Notes under the pieces: generated by a model
What the model saw: only the letters and a program-made list of their open reading frames with translations
Told to the model about the DNA's origin: nothing
Databases searched by the model: none
NCBI GenBank assembly: GCA_020434375.1
Contig: JAGRAY010000001.1
Span: 1 to 38,288, forward strand
Length of the DNA stretch: 38,288 nucleotides
DNA from: Bdellovibrionales bacterium
Lineage (GTDB): Bacteria; Bdellovibrionota_G; JALEGL01; JAGRAY01
Reading direction: 5' to 3'
Translations under genes and position numbers: made by a program
Shown: positions 1,760 to 38,288 of the stretch, piece after piece
How the letters are laid out: each line of letters opens with the position of its first letter
Position numbering within the stretch: the stretch's first letter is position 1

Positions 1760-3636
1760 AAAACCTCCGAACAACGCAATGCATTGTGTTTTCGCAGGTA
1801 AATACTCAATACACCCATGGCTGCAGGCGTGACGCCTGATATCCTTGATGCCTGCCCCAATGTTCTGGGTCTGATTTTTAAAAGTTTCTCTCGAACCTCT
1901 GAGGAAAGACTAGGCAAAACGGTAAAGTCGAAGTCACCAGGAATCATCGTGGTCTCCTCACGGGACATACGCAAAATTTCCCTTTTCTCCCGTTCAATAT
2001 AGCCCTCGTATTTAATTGCAATCTCTACCTGCTCAGCGACCACTCTGGGAACATCACTTAGCAAAGGGCTGATCTGCCTTAGAAGATCCCAACTCACTTC
2101 CGGCCTACGAAATAACTCTGAAAACGTGGTCGATGTTTTAATCGGTGCTAAATGCAAACGAGACAATAAATTAGAGACACTCGGGGTTGGTGTGAGCTTG
2201 AGTTCATCTAATTGTTTGCGCAAGCGTTCAATAGATGCCATTTTTTCGTTATAACGGCGATCAACCTCGTACGAAATCAATCCCAGAGCTTTAGCTAAAG
2301 GGTGTAGTCGTTGATCAGCATTGTCTTCTCTCAAATACAATCGATGCTCAGCTCGAGAAGTAAACATTCTATAGGGCTCTTTGGTCCCTTTAGTAACCAG
2401 ATCGTCAATCATGACACCAATATACGATTCGGTTCGCTTCAAGATAATAGGATCTTGCTGACCCAAGTGACGAACGCTATTGATTCCCGCTAAAAGGCCT
2501 TGTCCTGCCGCCTCTTCATAACCCGTCGTGCCATTGATTTGACCGGCCAAAAAAAGCCCAGAGATTTTTTTTGTCTCTAGAGAAGGATGAAGTTCTAAAG
2601 GGTCAACATAGTCATATTCAATGGCATAGCCTGGACGCATGACTTCCACGTTTTCTAAGCCTTTCATGGTTCTTAGAAATGCCACTTGAACAGGAAATGG
2701 CAATGAATTAGACAATCCATTTGGATAAATTTCGTGGGTGTCGAGACCCTCCCGTTCGAGAAAAATCTGATGGCGATCTTTATCTTTAAACCGAACAACC
2801 TTGTCTTCAATGCAGGGACAATATCGGGGTCCAAGCGTTTGAATTTTACCGCTGTACATGGAAGACAAGTGAAGATTCTCGCGAATCAATGCGTGCGTCT
2901 CTTCGTTTGTGTAGGCAAGATGGCAAGGCACCTGCTCTAAAAGCGTTGGCGAATGAAAAAATGAAAACGTTGGTGGTGGTTCGTCGCCAGGCTGTTCTTC
3001 TAAAATGTCAAATCGAATCGTCTTGGCGTCTAACCTAGGTACCGTTCCTGTCTTAAGGCGCCCCATAGAAAAACCCTGCTGTTTTAGCGATGCACTTAGT
3101 CCAATGGAAGGCTGGTCACCAGAACGACCGGCAGGTTCTGTATACTTTCCAATATGAATTAACCCGTTCAAGAATGTCCCTGTGGTTAAAACAACGGCGG
3201 CAGCTTGAATGCACTCTCCCATGGCAGTTTCAATACCCACACATCGCTCATCCCGAATAAGAAGTTTTTCAGCCATACCTTGTTTCACGTGAAACATTTT
3301 TATGGATTCAACTTTCTCTTTCATTCGGCTTGCGTAGCGATATTTATCCGCCTGGGCCCGTGAAGCTCTCACGGCGGGACCTTTTTTTGTATTCAGCCGT
3401 CGAAATTGAATGCCTGTGTTGTCGATGGCTTGGCCCATCTCTCCCCCCAGAGCATCAATTTCCTTTACAATATGACCCTTACCAACGCCACCAATCGCAG
3501 GATTACAAGACATATGGCCGATACGATCTAAATTGCTAGTGAGGAGGCACACACGAGCACCCATTCGCGCCGCAGCTAACGCAGCTTCGATGCCTGCGTG
3601 CCCAGCACCCACAACAAGTATGTCGACCTTTAACAT
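1756..3636 (-). CDS. mnmG: tRNA uridine 5-carboxymethylaminomethyl modification enzyme MnmG (GidA)
   Basis: ORF 1756..3696 (-). FAD-binding [16 protein letters not shown], conserved [16 protein letters not shown], and full-length GidA-like sequence. Start set to ATG 3636 ([15 protein letters not shown]), 4 nt after the upstream gene's stop. The longer N-terminal extension would overlap that gene. Confidence 0.95.
3281..3296. promoter_or_regulatory. parS: parS centromere-like site (perfect palindrome TGTTTCACGTGAAACA), inside mnmG
   Basis: Exact 16-mer TGTTTCACGTGAAACA read directly at 3281-3296. It matches the widely conserved ParB-binding consensus TGTTNCACGTGAAACA and lies about 2.3 kb from parB. 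Confidence 0.85.
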
Positions 3637-3640
3637 TGTC

Positions 3641-4387
3641 CTAAAATCCTGTCTTAATAATGGTTTTATGAGCGTAATAGTTCTTTTTAACGCCAATCGC
3701 AGGATAAACCATACAATGGCTAGCCAGCAAAACGCCCGGATTCAAAACACTATTGCATCCGGTTTCGACGCGATCGCCGATGATGGCGCCCATTTTGCGA
3801 AGCCCTGTTTTTATAAGATCATTCCCCAAACGAAGCACTATATCATCTTGAGTCATCTTAAGATTGGAAACCTTCGTTCCAGCACCCAAGTTCACAAAAT
3901 TCCCCAAAATACTGTCGCCAACGTAGGCAAAATGTGATGCTTTGGCCGCATCTAAAAAAATACTGCTTTTGACTTCTGAGGCATGACCTATCACACAATT
4001 CTTGCCCGTCAAAACACCCCCCCGAACATAGGCTCCGTGACGAACTTCTGTACCAGCCCCCAATATGGTTGGACCAGCAATATAGGCTCCCGCCTCGATG
4101 CGAACACCTGAACGGAGCTCAATATTGTCCCCCACCAAGTAACTTCCCGCCTCAACAAGGGCATTTCCTTCCGATGTTTTGATTTCGGTGGTCTTGAGCA
4201 CCAAAGAACCTTCACGAGGAACACCCTGTATATTCGAACGAAGATTCTCTGTAATCCATGTCTCTTTATATTTTGCCGCCAGAAGCTCCCATGGGTAATT
4301 GACAGAGCCCAAAAAATCTGAAAACCAAACGGCTGACAAATCAAAAAAATGAGAAATCTGTAATGTTTCACGTGAAACAGTAGTCAT
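3641..4387 (-). CDS. Hexapeptide-repeat (left-handed beta-helix) transferase-like protein
   Basis: ORF 3641..4387 (-), 248 aa. Runs of imperfect [LIV]-G-x4 hexapeptide repeats ([58 protein letters not shown]). Substrate cannot be assigned by eye. Confidence 0.7.
4364..4379. promoter_or_regulatory. parS: parS centromere-like site (perfect palindrome TGTTTCACGTGAAACA), inside the 5' end of the hexapeptide-repeat gene
   Basis: The same exact 16-mer as at 3281-3296, read directly at 4364-4379 (codons VSRET of the minus-strand ORF). Confidence 0.85.
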
Positions 4388-4409
4388 TAACTAAGCCTTT
4401 TAGCCCTAA

Positions 4410-5780
4410 TTACTTACCAATGCAAAATTTTGAAAATATCTGATCTAGGATATCTTCCTGAGGATCCGCTTTTCCAAGAATTTCTCCAATAAAACCAAGG
4501 CCTTGCCTAAATTCAAAGGAAACAAATTCCGAGAACTGGCCATCATGCATCGCAGCATATCCTTGGTCGAATGCACTTTTAAATTTTAGAAGAAGTTGCC
4601 GTTGTCTTTCGTTTGAGATGCCTCCACTTTGATGATACGTCAGTCGCCTTGTGGCTTCGTTTGTCAGAGCCTCTCTTAGTGCACCAATCCCATTGCCGTT
4701 TAGAGCGCTGACTAAAAAACATTTTCGCCCTTCCAACACTTCTTCTATTTTAGGTTCTTTGAGATCGATCTTGTTCCATACCACCCATAGTTTGTCCGAG
4801 CTCAATTTTTGAAGCCAACTTCTTTCCATTTCTCCTAATTTTTCTTCCGAAGATAAAATCAGGCAGACGATATCGGCGGCGTCGATCACGCCAATGGATC
4901 TTTCCATGCCCTCACGCTCAACAATATCCTTTACGCCTTCATGCAAGCCCGCTGTATCAAAAAGTCGTACCCGTCGACCCCCTAAGTTTAATTCTTCTCG
5001 AAGCAGATCTCGCGTAGTGCCTGCAATAGACGTTACAATCGCCCGATCTTCACTGAGCAAACGATTAAAAAGCGAGGATTTACCAACATTAGGTGCTCCA
5101 AAAAGAACCACTTTCATACCATCGTGTAACTCTTGGTTTGATTCGTAACTATTCAACAACTCGCTTGCGCGGGTTGAGATATCCTTTATTTTTTTCAACA
5201 ATGGGCCCCGCTGCTCTATTGGTAAATTCTCATCCGGAAAATCAATATCAGCTTCACATTCTGCCAAGACATCCAGAACTAACGCATAGAGAGATTCTAA
5301 CGATGCCGAAAGAGCACCAGAAAGCCGCTGTTTTGCAGCCTTGGCTTCCTCTAAAGATTCAGAATGAATTAGCTCGCAAATGGCCTCTGCCTGAACCAAA
5401 TCGATGCGGCCACTTAAAAATGCTCTTTGTGAAAACTCACCTGCGCGCGCCAATCTTGCTCCCTCATCGATGACCAGCGTAAGAATTTTATTGAGTAAAA
5501 TCGGATTGCCATGCCCATGAATCTCCACAACATCTTCTCCAGTGAAACTATGGGGTCCCTTCATCCAAGCAGATAAAACCTCGTCTATGACATCACCTGT
5601 TTTTGGCTCTACAATACTTCCTAGAACCAGTCGATGTGTTGCCCACTCTTGATCTTTTCGCGGAACAAATAGGCGATTAAAAATCTCTAAAGCTTTCGAA
5701 CCCGAAAGTCGAATGACGCCAATGCCAGCCTGGCCAATGGGCGTTGCAATCGCAGCAATCGTTTCTTGGCTATTCGTCAC
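4410..5780 (-). CDS. mnmE: tRNA modification GTPase MnmE (TrmE)
   Basis: ORF 4410..5780 (-), 456 aa, GTG start. G-domain motifs GAPNVGKSS (G1), DTAG (G3) and NKID (G4), plus the C-terminal CIGK motif characteristic of MnmE. Confidence 0.95.
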   Translation of the reverse strand: MTNSQETIAAIATPIGQAGIGVIRLSGSKALEIFNRLFVPRKDQEWATHRLVLGSIVEPKTGDVIDEVLSAWMKGPHSFTGEDVVEIHGHGNPILLNKILTLVIDEGARLARAGEFSQRAFLSGRIDLVQAEAICELIHSESLEEAKAAKQRLSGALSASLESLYALVLDVLAECEADIDFPDENLPIEQRGPLLKKIKDISTRASELLNSYESNQELHDGMKVVLFGAPNVGKSSLFNRLLSEDRAIVTSIAGTTRDLLREELNLGGRRVRLFDTAGLHEGVKDIVEREGMERSIGVIDAADIVCLILSSEEKLGEMERSWLQKLSSDKLWVVWNKIDLKEPKIEEVLEGRKCFLVSALNGNGIGALREALTNEATRRLTYHQSGGISNERQRQLLLKFKSAFDQGYAAMHDGQFSEFVSFEFRQGLGFIGEILGKADPQEDILDQIFSKFCIGK

Positions 5781-33229: not shown

Positions 33230-33580
33230 ATGAAATTTTCGCCTAAACTTCTTAATCAGACATTTAATTTAAAAATTTACTCGAGACGGTGGGGTCACTT
33301 TGACTCATACACGTGTAAAATTACAAACAGTGGTTGGTATTTTTCGTTTCACGGTATTGGAGGACGATGTAATAAAAAAGGACATCCGTACCTCTTTAAA
33401 AATTTTCGACAAGACCTGATCTGCTATCCAAGTGATTTAAGTTACGTTCTTGAGGATCTATGGGACAAAGTTCATCGAGACAAACTCAATCCAAATCAAA
33501 TTACCCCTAAGCTTAAAAAGATTGCAAAGTGGATCAGCGAAACTGAGAAAAATAGACCCAAATGGAAAATTAAAAACTAA
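33230..33580 (+). CDS. Hypothetical protein (116 aa)
   Basis: ORF 33230..33580 (+). Non-degenerate composition with conserved-looking Trp/Cys/His positions (SRRWGHFDSY, GGRCNKKGHPYLFKNFRQD). No family recognisable by eye. A perfect TATAAT lies 7 nt upstream of the ATG, so the mRNA may be leaderless. Confidence 0.55.
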   Translation: MKFSPKLLNQTFNLKIYSRRWGHFDSYTCKITNSGWYFSFHGIGGRCNKKGHPYLFKNFRQDLICYPSDLSYVLEDLWDKVHRDKLNPNQITPKLKKIAKWISETEKNRPKWKIKN

Positions 33581-33678: not shown

Positions 33679-34686
33679 TTAGTGATTCAACTTTGCAAGC
33701 CAGGCTGAGTTACTTGACATAAAACACTTATCCAAGTCATTAGGTCCACACATGGCCAAATCATAGATTCTCTCACCCACATAGTTAGCCTCATCTGCGG
33801 TTTTATTAATTACAAACAATTTAAGTTTTCGGCCTAGCTTTCTTGTGAGAAATGAAAACATCACTTTTGCTAATGTATCTGACTCGGGCAAGCTGTACCC
33901 GAATATAACTAAGTTCTCTGCTTGTTGAATTGCCGAAAATGCATCGTGCCAAAAATGAATCATTGATCGCCGATTTCCATAGTCTTTCAAATAATCCGGC
34001 ACAATTACATATGCATCTTCGCTGCTAATTTCCCCCATATTGGATCTACATTCTGGGAAGTAGTTGTCACTAACGACGATTTCTAAATCTTTTGTCGATG
34101 AATCGATCGGAGTTTTATTTATGAAATTCAAAGAACCATGCGGTTTAATTAAGGAAATATTATTTTCTACCTTGGGAAGCCTTTCAGATACTTTGTCGAT
34201 AAGCCATGATGAAGGGTTCCCATCTAGACCGTATCCGCCCTTAGGGGACCAAAGTCCAGCCTTCCACAATAAGCGCTCTACGAATATGTCATAGTTGAAC
34301 GAGATAATAATATCTAAAGGTCTAAATATTCTTTGGATTTCTGAAAGTGCATTATTTTCTATATTTTGAGGTGGGGTGGTTAGTAGATGTTCTCTAGAGA
34401 AAGTACAAAACCGTCTTTTTAAGGTTTCTGACTCAGATGATGTGAGACTTAAAGCTAAGAACGTTAAGCTTTTTTCCAAATCTTCCGATGCAAATCCGAC
34501 TAACTTATTTTCATAGTCCGATTTGTATTTTGCAACAAAAGCTTCAAGCAATGTTTTTGATAGTGGGTATTGGCACTTTGAAAAATGATGAGAAAATCCT
34601 GCGCCTAATACGAACACTCTTCTAGCTTCTGGCTTTTTTCTTAAAAACATATGCCTTAAATATTTAATAGTACAATGGTATACCAT
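33679..34686 (-). CDS. SIR2-like domain protein (SIR2_2 type), short standalone form, predicted NAD+-consuming effector
   Basis: ORF 33679..34911 (-). SIR2_2-type motif series: RVFVLGAGFS (GAGxS), IIISFNYD (catalytic Asn), IKPHGSLN (catalytic His) and LVIFGYSLPESD. The first 75 codons of the track ORF are antisense to a convincing AbrB-fold gene and look like junk. The start is therefore ATG 34686 (M76) or ATG 34650 (M88, with weak AAGG upstream). Confidence 0.8.
   Translation of the reverse strand: MVYHCTIKYLRHMFLRKKPEARRVFVLGAGFSHHFSKCQYPLSKTLLEAFVAKYKSDYENKLVGFASEDLEKSLTFLALSLTSSESETLKRRFCTFSREHLLTTPPQNIENNALSEIQRIFRPLDIIISFNYDIFVERLLWKAGLWSPKGGYGLDGNPSSWLIDKVSERLPKVENNISLIKPHGSLNFINKTPIDSSTKDLEIVVSDNYFPECRSNMGEISSEDAYVIVPDYLKDYGNRRSMIHFWHDAFSAIQQAENLVIFGYSLPESDTLAKVMFSFLTRKLGRKLKLFVINKTADEANYVGERIYDLAMCGPNDLDKCFMSSNSAWLAKLNH
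34656..34686. promoter_or_regulatory. Two perfect 12-bp palindromes in the divergent SIR2 / AbrB control region (candidate operators)
   Basis: TTAAATATTTAA at 34656-34667 and ATGGTATACCAT at 34675-34686 are both perfect palindromes. They lie in the 43 bp or less between the SIR2-like start and the AbrB-like ATG (34694). Confidence 0.35.
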
Positions 34687-34693
34687 CAGTGGA

Positions 34694-34915
34694 ATGATTA
34701 AGAAACTAGTTCCCCACGGTAATGCCTTGGCCTTAATTATTGATAGGCCGATCTTAGAACTTTTGAGAATTGAAGCCCATACTCCGCTTGAAATTGAGAC
34801 CGTGGATGGAAAATCTCTAACAATTCGCCCTGTGCGAAATAGCGTGGCGTTAAAAGCGGCCATGAAAGAAATTAATCGCAAATATCGAAAAACACTTAAA
34901 AATTTGGACAAATGA
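34694..34915 (+). CDS. AbrB/MazE/SpoVT-fold DNA-binding protein (antitoxin-like)
   Basis: ORF 34694..34915 (+), 73 aa. N-terminal swapped-hairpin signature KLVPHGNALALIIDRPILELLRI...LEIETVDGKSLTIRPV, with a C-terminal helix AAMKEINRKYRKTLKNL like the antitoxins that precede Doc/PIN toxins. Confidence 0.8.
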   Translation: MIKKLVPHGNALALIIDRPILELLRIEAHTPLEIETVDGKSLTIRPVRNSVALKAAMKEINRKYRKTLKNLDK

Positions 34916-34934: not shown

Positions 34935-36644
34935 GTGAACCCAAATATGCTTCACTTTCGCCAAACCCATGGAATTCGCTTAGGACTTAGTGAACTCGTA
35001 GGTGGTTCGCCCAGGACTATGGCAGATTTAATTGCCGTTTTATCGACGCTCCCGGTCACTCCAACAAGAATAATCCTATCTAAAATACAGATCCTCATGG
35101 CTAATGAGGACTCGAGCGACTTCGAAAACCACATGCGGACTCATTACGTTGGGCCAGCATGCATCGAAGCTCTGAAAAAGTACTCCGCTGTCAAAGGAGC
35201 ACAGGTCAGACTATTTACCAAAATGGCGATTCTTCTAGTCCAGGAAGTTTTTCGTCAACATCATGATATCAAAAAGTCAGGGCCAGCTGAGGTAGAGTAC
35301 GTCATACCTAAAATTTCAGAAGCGATTTTAATCGCGAACGATATATGCAACACAGTTACATCTAAATCTGATAAAAATATGGCTGAGCCTGATAACTATG
35401 CCACCTTTGCCCTACCAGAAATGCTTTTTAACTATTCCGACCAGTTTCGCTATGCCATTGGTCGCTCGTATTTAATTTATGAAGGTTTAAAAGAACGTTG
35501 CCGTACCGAATATCCTGATGATTTTTTCGACGTCGATGCCTTTTTTAAGGAGAAACTTAAAATTGGCTTCGATGATTATTTTTTTGCAATCTTTGCTTTG
35601 TATTCGCAGTGGAGCTTTTCTTTTAAAGACCTAGCTAACCAATCTGGCTTGATTGATCCTACTACTTGGATTGAATCGCCTTTATTAAGGACAAGGATTA
35701 ACAACATCTTGGCTTTATTTGAGGACTCCTGGGAGCAACCTCAAACAATTTCAGATGTAGAGAATCTCGAGATTATTAGGGAAGTTATCTATGAGAATTT
35801 TCATCTTAGAAAATCACCTCTTCTTAAAATTCCTGAAGGCATTCTTTGTGGAAGCTTGCAGCACATCATGAGCAAATGCTGGAATGGTCCATATTATGAA
35901 ATTATTGACCGAGGAAATGAATGTCAAAAAGATCTGTTCTTTCGTTTTCTAGGTAGAACAATAGAAATGTATGTTCAAGGCCTATTAAAAGACGCTTTTA
36001 GACATAAATTTAAGCAAATTACTTCTACATCAGGAAACCCAATTGCTGATGCCGCTGTTTACATTAAGTCTAGTTGGTGCTTGCTATTTGAAGTTAAGGC
36101 TAAACGCCCAACAAGAGAGATGACTTCTAGCGGTGATGCTCCAGCCGAGATGCAGGCGGTTGCCAAAATGGCTTTTGAAGGTCTTCAACAGCTTAATAAT
36201 AGAATTGCCGACTTTCGTGCGACCGGATTTAGGGGAAGAATTACCCCAATTCTAGTAACTGGTGGACTGTTTCCAATTAATAGTTTGCTATGGAAGCACT
36301 ATCTTCACAAAGTCGAGTCTCTTCCAATGATGAGTGACCTAGAGGTTGATTTACCCCAATTTATGAATCTCGAATCTATCGAAATTCTTACGGCACTAAA
36401 ACAGATTTGTGGAATAACCGATCTCTTAAGAGAGAAGCTCACTGATTCCTGGAAGGCTGAATCGTTACAAACTTTCCTTTTTTCTTATTATTTTCCTAAG
36501 TATCAAATCATTGAGCCATTAAATAAAACATGTGAAAGCCTTTATAAAGACCGCATGGCCGCCCTCATAAGGGCGCTTTTCCCCAATAAGGCTAGCGATT
36601 TTCCTGCTGACAATAGATGGCGTCCTGTTTTTAGCCGCACTTAG
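34935..36644 (+). CDS. Large hypothetical protein (569 aa) with C-terminal PD-(D/E)xK nuclease-like motif
   Basis: ORF 34935..36644 (+); GTG at 34935 or ATG at 34947. Starts 20-32 nt after the AbrB-like stop, so it is probably co-transcribed. Motif order helix-E (FLGRTIEMYVQGLL), then D (IADAAVY, D372), then E-x-K (LLFEVKAKR, E386/K388), then a helix with Q (AFEGLQQL), which is the restriction-endonuclease-fold pattern. The N-terminal ~340 aa has no recognisable domain. Confidence 0.75.
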   Translation: MNPNMLHFRQTHGIRLGLSELVGGSPRTMADLIAVLSTLPVTPTRIILSKIQILMANEDSSDFENHMRTHYVGPACIEALKKYSAVKGAQVRLFTKMAILLVQEVFRQHHDIKKSGPAEVEYVIPKISEAILIANDICNTVTSKSDKNMAEPDNYATFALPEMLFNYSDQFRYAIGRSYLIYEGLKERCRTEYPDDFFDVDAFFKEKLKIGFDDYFFAIFALYSQWSFSFKDLANQSGLIDPTTWIESPLLRTRINNILALFEDSWEQPQTISDVENLEIIREVIYENFHLRKSPLLKIPEGILCGSLQHIMSKCWNGPYYEIIDRGNECQKDLFFRFLGRTIEMYVQGLLKDAFRHKFKQITSTSGNPIADAAVYIKSSWCLLFEVKAKRPTREMTSSGDAPAEMQAVAKMAFEGLQQLNNRIADFRATGFRGRITPILVTGGLFPINSLLWKHYLHKVESLPMMSDLEVDLPQFMNLESIEILTALKQICGITDLLREKLTDSWKAESLQTFLFSYYFPKYQIIEPLNKTCESLYKDRMAALIRALFPNKASDFPADNRWRPVFSRT

Positions 36645-36684: not shown

Positions 36685-37311
36685 ATGAATTTACCATTTT
36701 ATTATAAAAATGGTAAATTCAACATTCACATGCCCATTGACTCAATCCCTAATTCATTAAAAACACAAGGGCTACTAACAGCCCAAAAGCTTCGGAATCG
36801 TCTAGGTGTCTCGCAACCGACACTCTCGAGACTCGTAAAAAGCGGTTCACTTCGTCGATTTAGTCATGGGCTTTATGCTCATCCAGATTGTGCCGTTCCT
36901 CCGGAAGAAATCGATTTTGCAGTGGCCTGTGCGCGATTCGCCCCTACTTCTGCCATTGGTGGGTTGTCCGCCTTGTTTCACTACGGACTACTTGATCAAC
37001 CGCCTCATCAAATATGGGTCGTCATCCTTCCCCAGAAATCGGATCATAACGATTTCTACCGAACGCTCCGGACCAAGACATCTCCGAAGTATGGTATTGA
37101 CGTTTTCAAATTCTATCGAATGACCAATATAGAACGGACGCTTCTTGAAGCGCTGAAGTTTGCTCCTAAAATTGGTCCACGTATTGCTATATCAGCTGCA
37201 AGGATGGCCCTTCAAAAAGGCTTAACCACAGAAAAGAAGCTTGGTGAAATGGCAAAAAAACTAAAATTGAAATCCGTACTTGAAAAATATTGGGAAGCGA
37301 TCGTGATATGA
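36685..37311 (+). CDS. AbiEi-family (type IV TA) antitoxin / transcriptional regulator-like protein, without a cognate AbiEii gene
   Basis: ORF 36685..37311 (+), 208 aa. wHTH signature LTAQKLRNRLGVSQPTLSRLVKSGSLRRFSHGLYAHPD typical of AbiEi N-domains. C-terminal domain with ERTLLEAL. The true start may be ATG 36730 if the inverted repeat is an operator. Confidence 0.75.
   Translation: MNLPFYYKNGKFNIHMPIDSIPNSLKTQGLLTAQKLRNRLGVSQPTLSRLVKSGSLRRFSHGLYAHPDCAVPPEEIDFAVACARFAPTSAIGGLSALFHYGLLDQPPHQIWVVILPQKSDHNDFYRTLRTKTSPKYGIDVFKFYRMTNIERTLLEALKFAPKIGPRIAISAARMALQKGLTTEKKLGEMAKKLKLKSVLEKYWEAIVI
36686..36721. promoter_or_regulatory. Perfect 15-bp inverted repeat at the 5' end of the AbiEi-like gene (candidate operator)
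   Basis: TGAATTTACCATTTT-attata-AAAATGGTAAATTCA read directly at 36686-36721. AT-rich with no following T-tract, so it looks more like an operator than a terminator. Confidence 0.45.
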
Positions 37312-37467: not shown

Positions 37468-37944
37468 ATGCAAGCAATAGACAATTCCATGGTCGTAAAT
37501 ATTCCTAGCAAAGACGAAAGCAAAACGGCGGAAGAAGCTGCGCGTAGCTTGGCTAGGCACCAGCCTACTAAAAAAGAAAAAGTAGTTTCTTTGCAGTTTA
37601 TTAGGGGCGAAAAAAATAAAAGCCCCGAGGAAGTTAAAATACCCTTCGCCGCCTATCAATTGCTAATCAACTTACTTTCTGAAATGGCCCGGGGAAATGC
37701 TGTAACCTTAATGCCGATCCACGCTGAATTGACGACCCAAGAAGCGGCGAATCTGATGAATGTTTCCCGACCTTTTCTGATTCAACTCCTTGAAAAAGGA
37801 GAAGTGCCCTTCCGAAAAGTAGGAAGTCATCGCAGGATTCTTGCAAAGGATCTCTTCGAATACAAAAAAGGTATCGATATAAAGAGAAGTGAAACCTTGG
37901 ATGAACTGACCGCAGATGCTCAAAAACTGGGGCTGGATTATTAA
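37468..37944 (+). CDS. Excisionase-type HTH DNA-binding protein (antitoxin partner of PIN toxin)
   Basis: ORF 37468..37944 (+), 158 aa. ELTTQEAANLMNVSRPFLIQLLEKGEVPFRKVGSHRRILAKDL is the typical HTH_17/excisionase-family motif found upstream of PIN_3 toxins. Its stop lies 2 nt before the PIN start. Confidence 0.8.
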   Translation: MQAIDNSMVVNIPSKDESKTAEEAARSLARHQPTKKEKVVSLQFIRGEKNKSPEEVKIPFAAYQLLINLLSEMARGNAVTLMPIHAELTTQEAANLMNVSRPFLIQLLEKGEVPFRKVGSHRRILAKDLFEYKKGIDIKRSETLDELTADAQKLGLDY

Positions 37945-37946
37945 TC

Positions 37947-38288
37947 TTGGCTCAGTACACTGCCCTTTTTGATGCATGTGTGTTGTATCCGATGGGTCTT
38001 CGCGACCTTTTGATGGAACTTGCCCTCACGGACACGTTTCGCGCACGGTGGACGAATGAAATACTAGATGAATGGGTTGATGCAATCCACGAAAGACGCC
38101 CCGACATTCCAAAACAAAATTTAAGCAAGCAGCGCGCGTTAATGAATGACCATGTCCGTGATGCCTTGATTGAAAACTACCAAGACTTGATTCCAACGCT
38201 ATCCTTGCCGGACCCTAAGGATCGGCATGTTCTAGCTGCAGCGATTCGTGGCCGTGCAGATGCCATTGTTACTTTTAATCTTAAAGAT
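37947..38288 (+). CDS. PIN-domain ribonuclease toxin (VapC-like, PIN_3 type), 3'-truncated by the window edge
   Basis: Not in the ORF track (no stop inside the window). Hand translation from TTG 37947 gives (M)AQYTALFDACVLYPMGLRDLLMELALTDTFRARWTNEILDEWVDAIHERRPDIPKQNL...LPDPKDRHVLAAAIRGRADAIVTFNLKD, with conserved acidic residues (FDACVL, DPKDRHVLAAA, TFNLKD). TTG is the only canonical in-frame start between the upstream stop (37902-37904) and the first conserved Asp. Confidence 0.8.
   Translation, partial: MAQYTALFDACVLYPMGLRDLLMELALTDTFRARWTNEILDEWVDAIHERRPDIPKQNLSKQRALMNDHVRDALIENYQDLIPTLSLPDPKDRHVLAAAIRGRADAIVTFNLKD

What the first reader, a model, noticed from the sequence alone, without database searches (positions are those of the whole stretch)
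34935..36644. 569-aa protein: unknown ~340-aa N-terminal domain fused to a restriction-endonuclease-like core, in the genomic position of a toxin
Seen: the motif series FLGRTIEMYVQGLL, then IADAAVY (GAT at 36048-36050), then LLFEVKAKR (GAA 36090-36092, AAG 36096-36098). The 13-residue spacing between the Asp and the ExK matches the classic beta2-beta3 PD-(D/E)xK geometry. There is no P-loop, HNH, HEPN or Doc (HxFx[DN][AG]NKR) motif. The gene immediately follows an AbrB-fold antitoxin-like gene whose C-terminal helix resembles those of Doc/PIN-partner antitoxins. Inference: the N-terminal domain could act as a sensor that regulates the nuclease, which would make this a TA-like or Abi-like pair with an unusually large toxin.
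Basis: partly seen in the sequence, partly recalled or inferred. Interest (0 to 1): 0.7.

Follow-up and report, generated by a model that had tools for sequence, protein, structure and literature searches.

The report
Distant GapS1-like anti-phage nuclease gene
This gene encodes a distant relative of GapS1, a known one-protein bacterial anti-virus system that joins a sensor region to a DNA/RNA-cutting domain, and the small "antitoxin" gene in front of it belongs to a different toxin (Doc) that is missing here, so the two are probably not a matched toxin-antitoxin pair.

Summary
The ORF and its motifs are real.

The motif alone is weak: D-x13-ExK occurs in about 10% of shuffles. Its residues, though, are nearly invariant in 61 relatives at 15-30% identity. 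The AlphaFold model (pLDDT 92) places them on the expected helix and hairpin. Foldseek and the PDB sequence search return PD-(D/E)xK nucleases.

The protein belongs to a family of at least 621 clusters that is homologous almost end to end to GapS1/GAPS1 (hhalign 99.2%, E 1.3e-19, 428 columns). Its N and C halves each match independently. Its catalytic residues map onto the GAPS1 residues whose mutation abolishes defence. Residues 150-316 of the "unknown" N-terminal region are therefore GapS1-like.

It is not a member of NCBI's GapS1 subfamily (16.6 bits against a 320-bit cutoff).

The upstream 73-aa gene is a Doc-partner antitoxin: 25 of 33 relatives are followed by Doc and none by a GapS1-like gene. 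No homologue examined has this antitoxin upstream, and distant ones stand alone in defence or mobile islands.

Verdict: a divergent new member of a known kind of single-protein sensor-nuclease defence. The toxin-antitoxin reading is unsupported.

The parts
34947..36644 (+). GapS1-like gene (565 aa plus stop). The listed ORF begins at GTG 34935, but the conserved start is ATG 34947.
   Evidence: ORF list and sequence. Homologue alignment starts at this Met. NCBI product is 565 aa. Family profile versus bona fide GapS1: 99.2%, E 1.3e-19, 428 columns.
34947..35393 (+). N-terminal helical segment, aa 1-149. It is conserved within the family. The full-length profile alignment to GapS1 starts at about aa 93, and the split N-half test covers only aa 150-316. 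Function unknown; candidate part of the sensor.
   Evidence: Model secondary structure is all-helical. The full-length hhalign starts at query position 93, and the split test starts at 150.
35394..35894 (+). Middle region, aa 150-316. Homologous to GapS1 residues 105-263; presumed sensor/regulatory region.
   Evidence: Split hhalign N-half versus GapS1 N-half: 97.4%, E 1.2e-11, 154 columns. Crossed controls give E about 0.1.
35922..36266 (+). PD-(D/E)xK nuclease core, aa 326-440: helix 325-354 (E340), strands 369-374 (preceded by D368) and 377-384 (E382, K384), helix 403-425 (Q415), strand 431-438.
   Evidence: Model pLDDT 92 with secondary structure. Foldseek: Upx, Nt.BspD6I, FokI, BstEII, Card1, Cas4, BsoBI, VRR_NUC, SgrAI. 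Family profile hits the Can2 core at E 1.2e-5. NERD hits in 6 of 61 relatives.
35964..35966 (+). E340 codon (GAA), the helix-1 acidic residue. Aligns with the invariant E283 of E. coli GapS1.
36048..36050 (+). D368 codon (GAT), the 'D' of PD. Aligns with GapS1 D315, which is equivalent to Vibrio GAPS1 D313, essential for defence.
36090..36098 (+). E382-V-K384 (GAA GTT AAG), the ExK motif. Aligns with GapS1 D328-A-K330. K330 is equivalent to Vibrio GAPS1 K328, essential for defence.
36267..36641 (+). C-terminal helical region, aa 441-565. The first part is homologous to GapS1; the extreme tail is the least conserved part.
   Evidence: hhalign extends to query position 560. Regional conservation.
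34694..34915 (+). 73-aa AbrB-fold antitoxin of the Doc-partner type, lacking its Doc toxin. It lies 31 nt upstream of ATG 34947 on the same strand. It is probably co-transcribed and may act as a transcriptional regulator. It is not a conserved partner of the family.
   Evidence: Weak profile hits. 34 related loci, of which 25 of the 33 with a downstream ORF have Doc downstream. N-terminal domain 62% identical to the Doc-paired relatives, C-terminal part 23%. No + strand terminator-like site between the two genes.

Best explanation
The gene encodes a stand-alone anti-phage defence protein of the GapS1 (GAPS1) type. A largely helical N-terminal and middle region (aa 1 to about 325) would keep a C-terminal PD-(D/E)xK phosphodiesterase (aa about 326-440; E340, D368, E382, K384) inactive until a phage-made protein is recognised. 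In Vibrio GAPS1 that trigger is the major capsid protein. The activated nuclease then cuts nucleic acid, and the infected cell stops growing (abortive infection or dormancy).

Shown here: homology of both halves to GapS1, conservation of the catalytic residues, a confident PD-(D/E)xK fold, solitary gene organisation in relatives, and location in mobile or defence islands.

Inferred: the anti-phage role of this clade, the trigger, the substrate and the autoinhibition.

The upstream 73-aa gene is a Doc-partner AbrB-type antitoxin that has lost Doc. Most likely it is a leftover toxin-antitoxin promoter/repressor module that now sits in front of the defence gene and may drive or regulate its transcription. 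It is probably not a protein-level antidote.
For: Homology
- The exhaustive profile search finds 621 clusters, mostly full-length at 550-620 aa.
- 43 of 61 diverse members hit NCBIfam GapS1, best E 3.4e-23. These alignments run through the catalytic region.
- hhalign of the family against a PGAP-annotated E. coli GapS1 gives 97.9%, E 5.7e-13. That gene is identical over 380 nt to the experimentally validated homologue EJP5250929.1.
- Against 22 GapS1 proteins, several of them named as GapS1 by their sources, hhalign gives 99.2%, E 1.3e-19 over 428 columns.
- The N and C halves are each significant, and the crossed controls are negative.

Catalytic residues
- E340/D368/E382/K384/Q415 align with the invariant GapS1 residues E283/D315/D328/K330/Q361.
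- GAPS1 D313A and K328A abolish defence.
- The residues are conserved across the family.

Fold
- The model has pLDDT 92 and pTM 0.93, with helix, beta hairpin, helix and strand at the expected positions.
- Foldseek returns PD-(D/E)xK enzymes, topped by the single-protein defence nuclease Upx.
- The family profile hits Can2 at E 1.2e-5.

Context
- The window holds a SIR2-like gene, AbiEi and an HTH-PIN pair around the target.
- Homologues lie next to tmRNA/tRNA genes and integrases.
- Other homologues sit among Wadjet-like, DUF4238 or Fic genes and stand alone with 550-700 bp of upstream spacer.
Against: - The close Bdellovibrionales clade alone is not significantly similar to GapS1: NCBIfam 16.6 bits against a 320-bit cutoff, and hhalign A1 versus GapS1 E 0.18. 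The link is transitive through the wider family.
- No member of this clade or of the wider 621-cluster family has been tested for defence.
- PADLOC v2 has no model for the family.
- The first ~92 residues have no counterpart in the full-length alignment to GapS1, and the split N-half test supports homology only from residue 150.
- This locus has a tightly linked upstream antitoxin-like gene, unlike GapS1.
Confidence: 0.68

Rival explanations
1. This is a toxin-antitoxin-like pair. The 565-aa nuclease is a constitutively toxic protein neutralised by the upstream AbrB-fold antitoxin, which has been re-partnered from Doc to this nuclease.
For: The two genes are on the same strand with a 31-nt gap and no + strand terminator-like site between them. 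The antitoxin ORF is intact. Its C-terminal, toxin-binding part has diverged (23% identity with a 4-7-residue deletion, against 62% in the DNA-binding part), which re-partnering could produce. Two other relatives of the antitoxin (L033, L034) also have a non-Doc gene in the toxin slot, so toxin swapping does occur in this antitoxin family.
Against: None of the eight homologue neighbourhoods examined has an AbrB-like gene upstream. The upstream element is a tRNA, a CoiA-like gene, an unrelated ORF or a long spacer. Of 33 antitoxin relatives, 25 pair with Doc and none with a GapS1-like gene. Vibrio GAPS1 arrests growth when co-expressed with its trigger, the T7 capsid protein, and the E. coli homologues are single genes. 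C-terminal divergence is also usual among antitoxins that still pair with Doc.
Confidence: 0.1
2. It is a PD-(D/E)xK/NERD-type nuclease that acts directly on nucleic acid without a phage-protein trigger. Examples would be a modification-dependent or Type IIS-like restriction enzyme, or a repair or mobile-element maintenance nuclease.
For: Foldseek lists Nt.BspD6I, FokI, BstEII, BsoBI and SgrAI. Six of 61 relatives hit Pfam NERD, and one is annotated 'Nuclease-related domain-containing protein'. The substrate and activation of GAPS1 itself are unknown.
Against: The restriction-enzyme matches have TM of about 0.18 or less and concern only the shared core. No methyltransferase or specificity gene is adjacent. 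Homology to GapS1 includes the non-nuclease region. The island-bound distribution argues against a housekeeping role.
Confidence: 0.17
3. It is a decaying or inactive passenger gene with no current function.
For: It lies among apparently orphaned modules: a Doc-less antitoxin and an AbiEi without AbiEii.
Against: The ORF is intact and full-length. All catalytic and structural signature residues are kept. Close homologues at 50-65% identity keep the nuclease core at 70% pairwise identity.
Confidence: 0.05

Closest known systems
GapS1 / GAPS1 (Vibrio parahaemolyticus VPaI-6, WP_005477165.1; E. coli and Klebsiella homologues; NCBIfam NF047931). Source: Mahata et al., bioRxiv 10.1101/2023.03.28.534373.
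   Same: It is a single polypeptide of about 450-530 aa with a non-catalytic N/middle region and a PD-(D/E)xK domain toward the C-terminus. Profile-profile homology covers about 430 columns. The catalytic E...D...(D/E)xK...Q residues align. It is carried on mobile islands or prophages.
   Different: The target scores only 16.6 bits against a 320-bit family cutoff. It has ExK where GapS1 has DxK, and the D-to-K spacing is 16 against 15. About 90-150 N-terminal residues have no clear counterpart in GapS1. The host is Bdellovibrionales. An antitoxin-like gene lies directly upstream. No experimental data exist for this clade.
Upx (single-protein PD-(D/E)xK defence nuclease; PDB 9wuf; PMC13099982, PMC13601566)
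   Same: It is the best structural match (Foldseek E 6e-6 and 1.8e-4, probability 1.00). Its concept is the same: a large sensor region plus a C-terminal PD-(D/E)xK core (D1161/E1176/K1178), activated by a phage protein.
   Different: Upx is about 1270 aa with a second, atypical N-terminal nuclease. TM-score is only 0.26-0.29. The family profile finds no sequence-level match to it in the PDB search.
Can2 / Card1 (CARF-PD-(D/E)xK CRISPR ancillary nucleases; PDB 7bdv, 6xl1)
   Same: The nuclease cores are similar at sequence-profile level (E 1.2e-5, profile positions 336-398) and by Foldseek. In both, a sensor domain controls a PD-(D/E)xK effector.
   Different: The target has no CARF domain and no CRISPR or cyclic-oligonucleotide context. 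The similarity is limited to about 60 residues of the core.
Phd/Doc-type toxin-antitoxin modules with an AbrB-fold 'doc_partner' antitoxin (TIGR02609)
   Same: The upstream 73-aa gene belongs to this antitoxin family, and 25 of 33 relatives are followed by a Doc gene with the HxFx(D/N)(G/A)NKR motif.
   Different: No Doc gene or remnant exists in the window. The downstream gene is a 565-aa GapS1-like nuclease unrelated to Doc.

Membership tests
PD-(D/E)xK phosphodiesterase superfamily | Core fold: alpha-helix carrying an acidic residue, then a beta hairpin carrying D and (D/E)xK, then a helix and a further strand | tested here: met
   The model (pLDDT 92) has H325-354, E369-374, E377-384, H403-425 and E431-438. 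Foldseek hits are PD-(D/E)xK enzymes.
PD-(D/E)xK phosphodiesterase superfamily | Conserved catalytic D ... (D/E)-x-K residues among homologues | tested here: met
   D368 kept in 60 of 61, E382 as E in 59 and D in 2, K384 kept in 51 of 61. All are invariant in the 10 close homologues.
PD-(D/E)xK phosphodiesterase superfamily | Metal-dependent nuclease activity | not testable with these tools
   Needs biochemistry.
GapS1 family (NCBIfam NF047931 subfamily) | Whole-protein score at or above the curated cutoff of 320 bits | tested here: not met
   16.6 bits, E 0.0027, covering aa 196-353 only. The best wider-family members seen score 65-71 bits.
GapS1-like superfamily (homology to GapS1) | Significant profile-profile similarity over both the non-catalytic and the nuclease regions | tested here: met
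   Family versus GapS1: 99.2%, E 1.3e-19, 428 columns. N half E 1.2e-11 and C half E 4.9e-11, with negative crossed controls. The close clade alone gives E 0.18, so the link is transitive.
GapS1-like superfamily (homology to GapS1) | Residues equivalent to GAPS1 D313 and K328, which are required for defence | tested here: met
   D368 aligns with D315 and K384 with K330 of E. coli GapS1.
GapS1-like superfamily (homology to GapS1) | Single-gene system without a conserved partner gene | tested here: met
   Upstream neighbours differ in all contexts, and distant members stand alone. E. coli gapS1 is a lone gene next to a prophage integrase. This locus is the exception, with an antitoxin-like gene upstream.
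GapS1-like superfamily (homology to GapS1) | Anti-phage activity triggered by a phage protein (capsid), causing growth arrest | not testable with these tools
   Needs phage challenge and trigger co-expression experiments.
Type II toxin-antitoxin pair (AbrB antitoxin plus this protein as toxin) | Conserved co-occurrence of antitoxin and toxin genes across homologues | tested here: not met
   None of eight target-homologue contexts has the antitoxin. None of 33 antitoxin-relative contexts has a GapS1-like gene, while 25 have Doc.
Type II toxin-antitoxin pair (AbrB antitoxin plus this protein as toxin) | Toxicity of the large protein alone, neutralised by the small protein | not testable with these tools
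   Needs expression experiments.
Phd/Doc module (for the 73-aa gene) | Doc toxin gene immediately downstream of the antitoxin | tested here: not met
   tblastn with 15 Doc sequences against the window gives a best E of 0.57. No [DN][GA]NKR motif occurs in any frame.

The most novel reading that the evidence does not exclude
A Doc-partner AbrB antitoxin has been captured by a GapS1-like sensor-nuclease to form a hybrid module. The small protein would either repress the operon until infection shuts off host transcription or proteolysis removes it, or bind the nuclease directly as a second safety catch. That would be a natural case of an antitoxin re-wired from Doc to a large defence nuclease, and it would show how toxin-antitoxin promoter/antidote cassettes are recycled to control single-protein immune effectors. 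More broadly, the family of at least 621 clusters would be an unrecognised, phylum-spanning sister family of GapS1, possibly with different phage triggers.
Probability: 0.12. Interest if true: 0.6.

Novelty: new member of a known kind. Interest (0 to 1): 0.4.

Why it matters
If the clade is active, the GapS1 type of single-protein immunity extends well beyond the enterobacterial and Vibrio proteins now recognised by NCBIfam. It would become a family of several hundred sequence clusters that includes predatory Bdellovibrionales and Firmicutes. None of these clusters matches a model in PADLOC v2 or Pfam. The family would offer diverse sensor regions for asking how such proteins recognise phage proteins and what the nuclease cuts, and both questions are still open for GAPS1. 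The Doc-less antitoxin in front of the gene is a small but concrete example of module shuffling in defence islands. It is also a warning against inferring toxin-antitoxin pairs from adjacency alone.

Tried and rejected
- Direct profile searches of the target found nothing except one weak GapS1 hit: Pfam, PADLOC, PHROGs and PDB sequences.
- The word-indexed homologue search returned only 10-12 close relatives, even when given the 61-sequence alignment. The exhaustive search was needed.
- tblastn against plasmids, with the target and with an intermediate member, found no match.
With the close alignment it gave one locus, the same island as L001.
- The viral fold library gave nothing significant.
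- The window protein is not on record in the contig index.
- One of the two GAPS1-homologue DNA fragments from the paper's supplement had no match in the E. coli genomes; the other did.
- A weak tblastn match of Doc to 36758-36817 on the minus strand was inspected and dismissed: E 0.7 and no GNKR motif.
- The stored copy of the GAPS1 homologue list is truncated, so I could not tell whether the authors' set already includes this clade. Their thresholds (E at or below 1e-15, at least 70% coverage) make that unlikely.
- A SIR2-like/GapS1-like functional pair was considered, because a SIR2-like gene also occurs 3 kb from the homologue in L001/L005. It was rejected because the two genes are not adjacent there and the SIR2-like gene is absent from the other contexts.
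Full report
**1. Observation**

The codons are where stated: GAT 36048-36050, GAA 36090-36092, AAG 36096-36098.

All homologues begin at the Met four codons downstream (M-L/I/H-HFR...), and the NCBI product of this contig is 565 aa (MAG Bdellovibrionales bacterium, KDD48_00150). The gene is therefore best written 34947..36644.

By itself the motif is not beyond chance. The exact D-x13-ExK pattern appears in about 10% of shuffles of this protein.

Conservation is what makes it real. In 10 homologues of 30-65% identity, E340, D368, E382, K384 and Q415 are invariant. In 61 relatives of 15-30% identity:

| Residue | Conservation in 61 relatives |
|---|---|
| D368 | 60 of 61 |
| E382 | 59 E + 2 D |
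| K384 | 51 of 61 |
| E340 | 49 E + 8 Q |
| Q415 | 58 of 61 |

**2. What the protein is**

Direct searches of Pfam, PADLOC, PHROGs and PDB sequences found nothing. The one exception was a weak NCBIfam hit to "antiphage GapS1": 16.6 bits, E 0.0027, against a cutoff of 320.

An exhaustive profile search showed that the protein belongs to a large family. There are 621 clusters (at 50% identity) with E at or below 1e-3, and 198 at or below 1e-10. Most are full-length proteins of 550-620 aa.

- Of 61 diverse members, 43 hit the GapS1 model, with a best E of 3.4e-23.
- Alignments of other members to the GapS1 model run through GapS1's catalytic region.
- Six members hit Pfam NERD.
- One member is WP_090742441.1 of *Mesobacillus persicus*, annotated "Nuclease-related domain-containing protein".

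To test the link directly I needed a bona fide GapS1 sequence. The supplement of the GAPS1 paper gives a 380-nt fragment of the validated E. coli homologue EJP5250929.1. That fragment is identical to a PGAP-annotated gapS1 gene in E. coli Ecol_AZ147, which I retrieved. From it I collected 22 GapS1 proteins, several of them named as GapS1 by their sources.

| hhalign comparison | Probability | E-value | Columns / residues |
|---|---|---|---|
| Family (61 sequences, ours first) vs the single E. coli GapS1 | 97.9% | 5.7e-13 | 355 columns |
| Family vs GapS1 alignment | 99.2% | 1.3e-19 | 428 columns; ours 93-560, GapS1 58-509 |
| N halves only | 97.4% | 1.2e-11 | ours 150-316, GapS1 105-263 |
| C halves only | 97.1% | 4.9e-11 | 170 columns |
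| Crossed N-vs-C controls | below 1% | about 0.1 | – |
| Close Bdellovibrionales clade alone vs GapS1 | 0.3% | 0.18 | – |

Both halves match independently. Because the close clade alone is not significant, the relationship is transitive through the wider family.

The alignment pairs E340/D368/E382/K384/Q415 with E283/D315/D328/K330/Q361, all invariant in GapS1. D315 and K330 correspond to D313 and K328 of Vibrio GAPS1. Substituting those two residues with alanine abolishes defence against T7.

**3. Fold**

With the 61-sequence alignment AlphaFold gives a confident model: mean pLDDT 92.0, pTM 0.93.

- Residues 1 to about 325 are mostly helical, with two small strand elements (259-261 and 292-301).
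- The core is helix 325-354 (E340), strand 369-374 (entered at D368), strand 377-384 (E382, K384), helix 403-425 (Q415) and strand 431-438. This is the canonical PD-(D/E)xK order.
- A helical C-terminal region follows.

Foldseek against the PDB puts the single-protein defence nuclease Upx (9wuf) first, at E 6e-6 and 1.8e-4 with probability 1.00. Then come Nt.BspD6I, FokI, BstEII, Card1, Cas4 SSO0001, BsoBI, VRR_NUC and SgrAI. TM-scores are low (0.29 or less), so only the core and some surrounding helices match. No solved structure resembles the whole protein.

Independently, the family's sequence profile hits the catalytic core of Can2 (7bdv) at E 1.2e-5. I could not obtain model coordinates, so clustering of the side chains is inferred, not measured.

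**4. The upstream "AbrB-like antitoxin"**

The 73-aa ORF (34694..34915) has only weak profile matches:

- MazE_antitoxin, E 0.027
- TIGR02609 doc_partner, E 0.004
- PDB MazE/PemI, E about 0.4

A metagenome scan found 34 loci encoding relatives of 40-78% identity. A downstream ORF could be called in 33 of them.

- In 15 of 33, the ORF immediately downstream carries the strict Doc signature H-x-F-x-[DN]-[GA]-N-K-R. It often overlaps the antitoxin by 4 bp and is 125-139 aa long.
- In 25 of 33 it is Doc or a Doc fragment by BLASTP.
- None is GapS1-like.

The window contains no Doc gene or remnant: best tblastn E is 0.57, and no GNKR motif occurs in any frame.

The antitoxin's DNA-binding N-terminal domain is 62% identical on average to the Doc-paired relatives. 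The C-terminal part is 23% identical and shorter by 4-7 residues, though the terminal YRKxLKxL motif is kept.

Conversely, none of the target's homologues has this gene upstream:

| Homologue (locus) | What lies upstream |
|---|---|
| P0002 (L003) | 3' end of a tRNA; two integrases downstream |
| P0004 (L004) | tRNA-Lys and tRNA-Glu |
| P0005 (L002), P0007 (L001, also L005) | a conserved CoiA-like gene of about 260 aa |
| P0003 | an unrelated 173-aa ORF |
| P0010 | a 287-bp spacer after a tRNA-synthetase gene |
| P0087 (Mesobacillus, L007/L008), P0104 (L009) | 550-700 bp of spacer, among T1RH-like, DUF4238, JetD-like or Fic genes |

The gene does occupy the slot of a toxin. The toxin that belongs there is Doc, and the pairing with the nuclease is unique to this locus.

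The two genes are 31 nt apart on the same strand, with no + strand terminator-like site between them. Co-transcription, and regulation by the AbrB-type repressor, is therefore a reasonable inference.

**5. Context in the window**

The last 5 kb of the contig is a mosaic of defence and toxin-antitoxin modules:

- an integron-cassette-like protein (33230-33580)
- a SIR2-like gene (minus strand)
- the Doc-less antitoxin
- the GapS1-like gene
- an AbiEi without AbiEii (36685-37311)
- an HTH_17 antitoxin with a PIN_3 toxin that runs off the contig end

No tRNA gene lies in the window. E. coli gapS1 is likewise the terminal gene of a P2-like prophage, beside the integrase.

**6. Mechanism**

What is known for GAPS1: it is a single protein with a PD-(D/E)xK domain, D313 and K328 are required, it is triggered by the T7 major capsid protein, and the outcome is dormancy. 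Its substrate is unknown.

By homology I propose the same logic here. The non-catalytic region senses a phage protein and releases the nuclease, which halts the infected cell.

Within the family the nuclease core is the most conserved part, and the N-terminal regions and extreme C-tail are less conserved. This fits a constant effector with more variable recognition surfaces, but the difference is modest.

Upx provides a structurally related precedent for a phage-protein-activated single-chain PD-(D/E)xK defence. Two groups disagree on whether its trigger is gp16 or the large terminase (PMC13099982, PMC13601566).

**7. Comparison and novelty**

The protein works like GapS1 and is homologous to it. 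It fails NCBI's subfamily cutoff by a wide margin, so I do not file it as a GapS1 family member in that strict sense. It is a member of a divergent sister group.

Differences from GapS1:

- ExK in place of DxK
- one extra residue in the catalytic hairpin (D-to-K spacing 16 against 15)
- about 90-150 additional or unalignable N-terminal residues
- the host lineage
- the Doc-less antitoxin upstream

PADLOC v2 and Pfam have no model for the family. The GAPS1 authors' thresholds (E at or below 1e-15, at least 70% coverage) would probably not have captured it. The stored copy of their list is truncated, so this could not be checked.

**8. Verdict**

- The nuclease and sensor/Abi-like parts of the interpretation are supported.
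- The toxin-antitoxin pairing is not supported.
- The finding is a new, distant member of a known kind of system: single-protein sensor plus PD-(D/E)xK anti-phage defence of the GapS1 type.
- Interest is moderate. It enlarges a recently described defence family and offers a tidy case of toxin-slot replacement, but it does not reveal a new principle.

Noticed in passing
window 33679-34911 (-): A SIR2-like ORF (Pfam SIR2_2 E 0.003-0.007; PADLOC SIR2 E 1.3e-5). Read from its TTG start, it overlaps the whole antitoxin gene on the other strand. The likely true start is the Met at 34650 (MFLRKKPEARRVFVLGAGFS). A SIR2-like gene of 24% identity (E 4e-7) also lies about 3 kb upstream of the homologue in L001/L005.
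   Followed up: partly
window 36685-37311 (+), palindrome 36686-36700 / 36707-36721: An AbiEi antitoxin-like gene (PADLOC E 5.7e-26) with no AbiEii toxin gene after it. A perfect 15-bp inverted repeat with a 6-nt spacer sits in the first 37 nt of the listed ORF. It may be an operator, in which case the real start would be Met16 (about 36730).
   Followed up: partly
window 37468-37944 (+) and 37941-38288 (+, cut by the contig end): An excisionase-type HTH_17 protein (Pfam E 1.3e-10; PADLOC mad1 E 2e-7), followed with a 4-nt overlap by a PIN_3 domain ORF (E 9.9e-12) that runs off the window. This is probably an HTH-PIN toxin-antitoxin pair.
   Followed up: partly
window 33230-33580 (+): A 116-aa protein matching Pfam PF21648 'Integron cassette protein' (E 2.5e-8). 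It lies at the boundary between the EamA transporter gene and the defence/toxin-antitoxin mosaic. No attC-like repeats were looked for specifically.
   Followed up: no
L001 5158-5946, L002 5222-6004, L005 5167-5994: A CoiA-like gene of about 260 aa (CoiA_N E 3.9e-5, CoiA_nuc E 0.0024; 45% identity between L001 and L002). It lies directly upstream of the GapS1-like gene in one subclade and overlaps its start in L002. It may be a clade-specific partner or a second nuclease.
   Followed up: partly
L001 1194-1541 (tmRNA); L004 4468-4639 (tRNA-Lys, tRNA-Glu); L003 1-30 (tRNA 3' end) and 1970-4645 (two integrases): Close homologues are early cargo genes of islands inserted at tmRNA or tRNA genes.
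   Followed up: partly
L006 4001-5527: E. coli gapS1 (WP_032260687.1) is the terminal gene of a P2-like prophage, immediately after the integrase. It matches phrog_14259 (E 1.7e-174), so GapS1 proper is prophage-borne there.
   Followed up: no
L033 862-1950 and L034 269-1318: Two relatives of the Doc-partner antitoxin are followed by an unrelated protein of about 350 aa instead of Doc. These are further examples of toxin-slot replacement in this antitoxin family.
   Followed up: no
wider family (alignment A2): Three of 61 family members carry a SEC-C/SWIM-type metal-binding motif (Pfam SEC-C E 7e-8; NCBIfam TIGR04102), and several have N-terminal extensions of 30-60 aa. The significance is unknown.
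   Followed up: no
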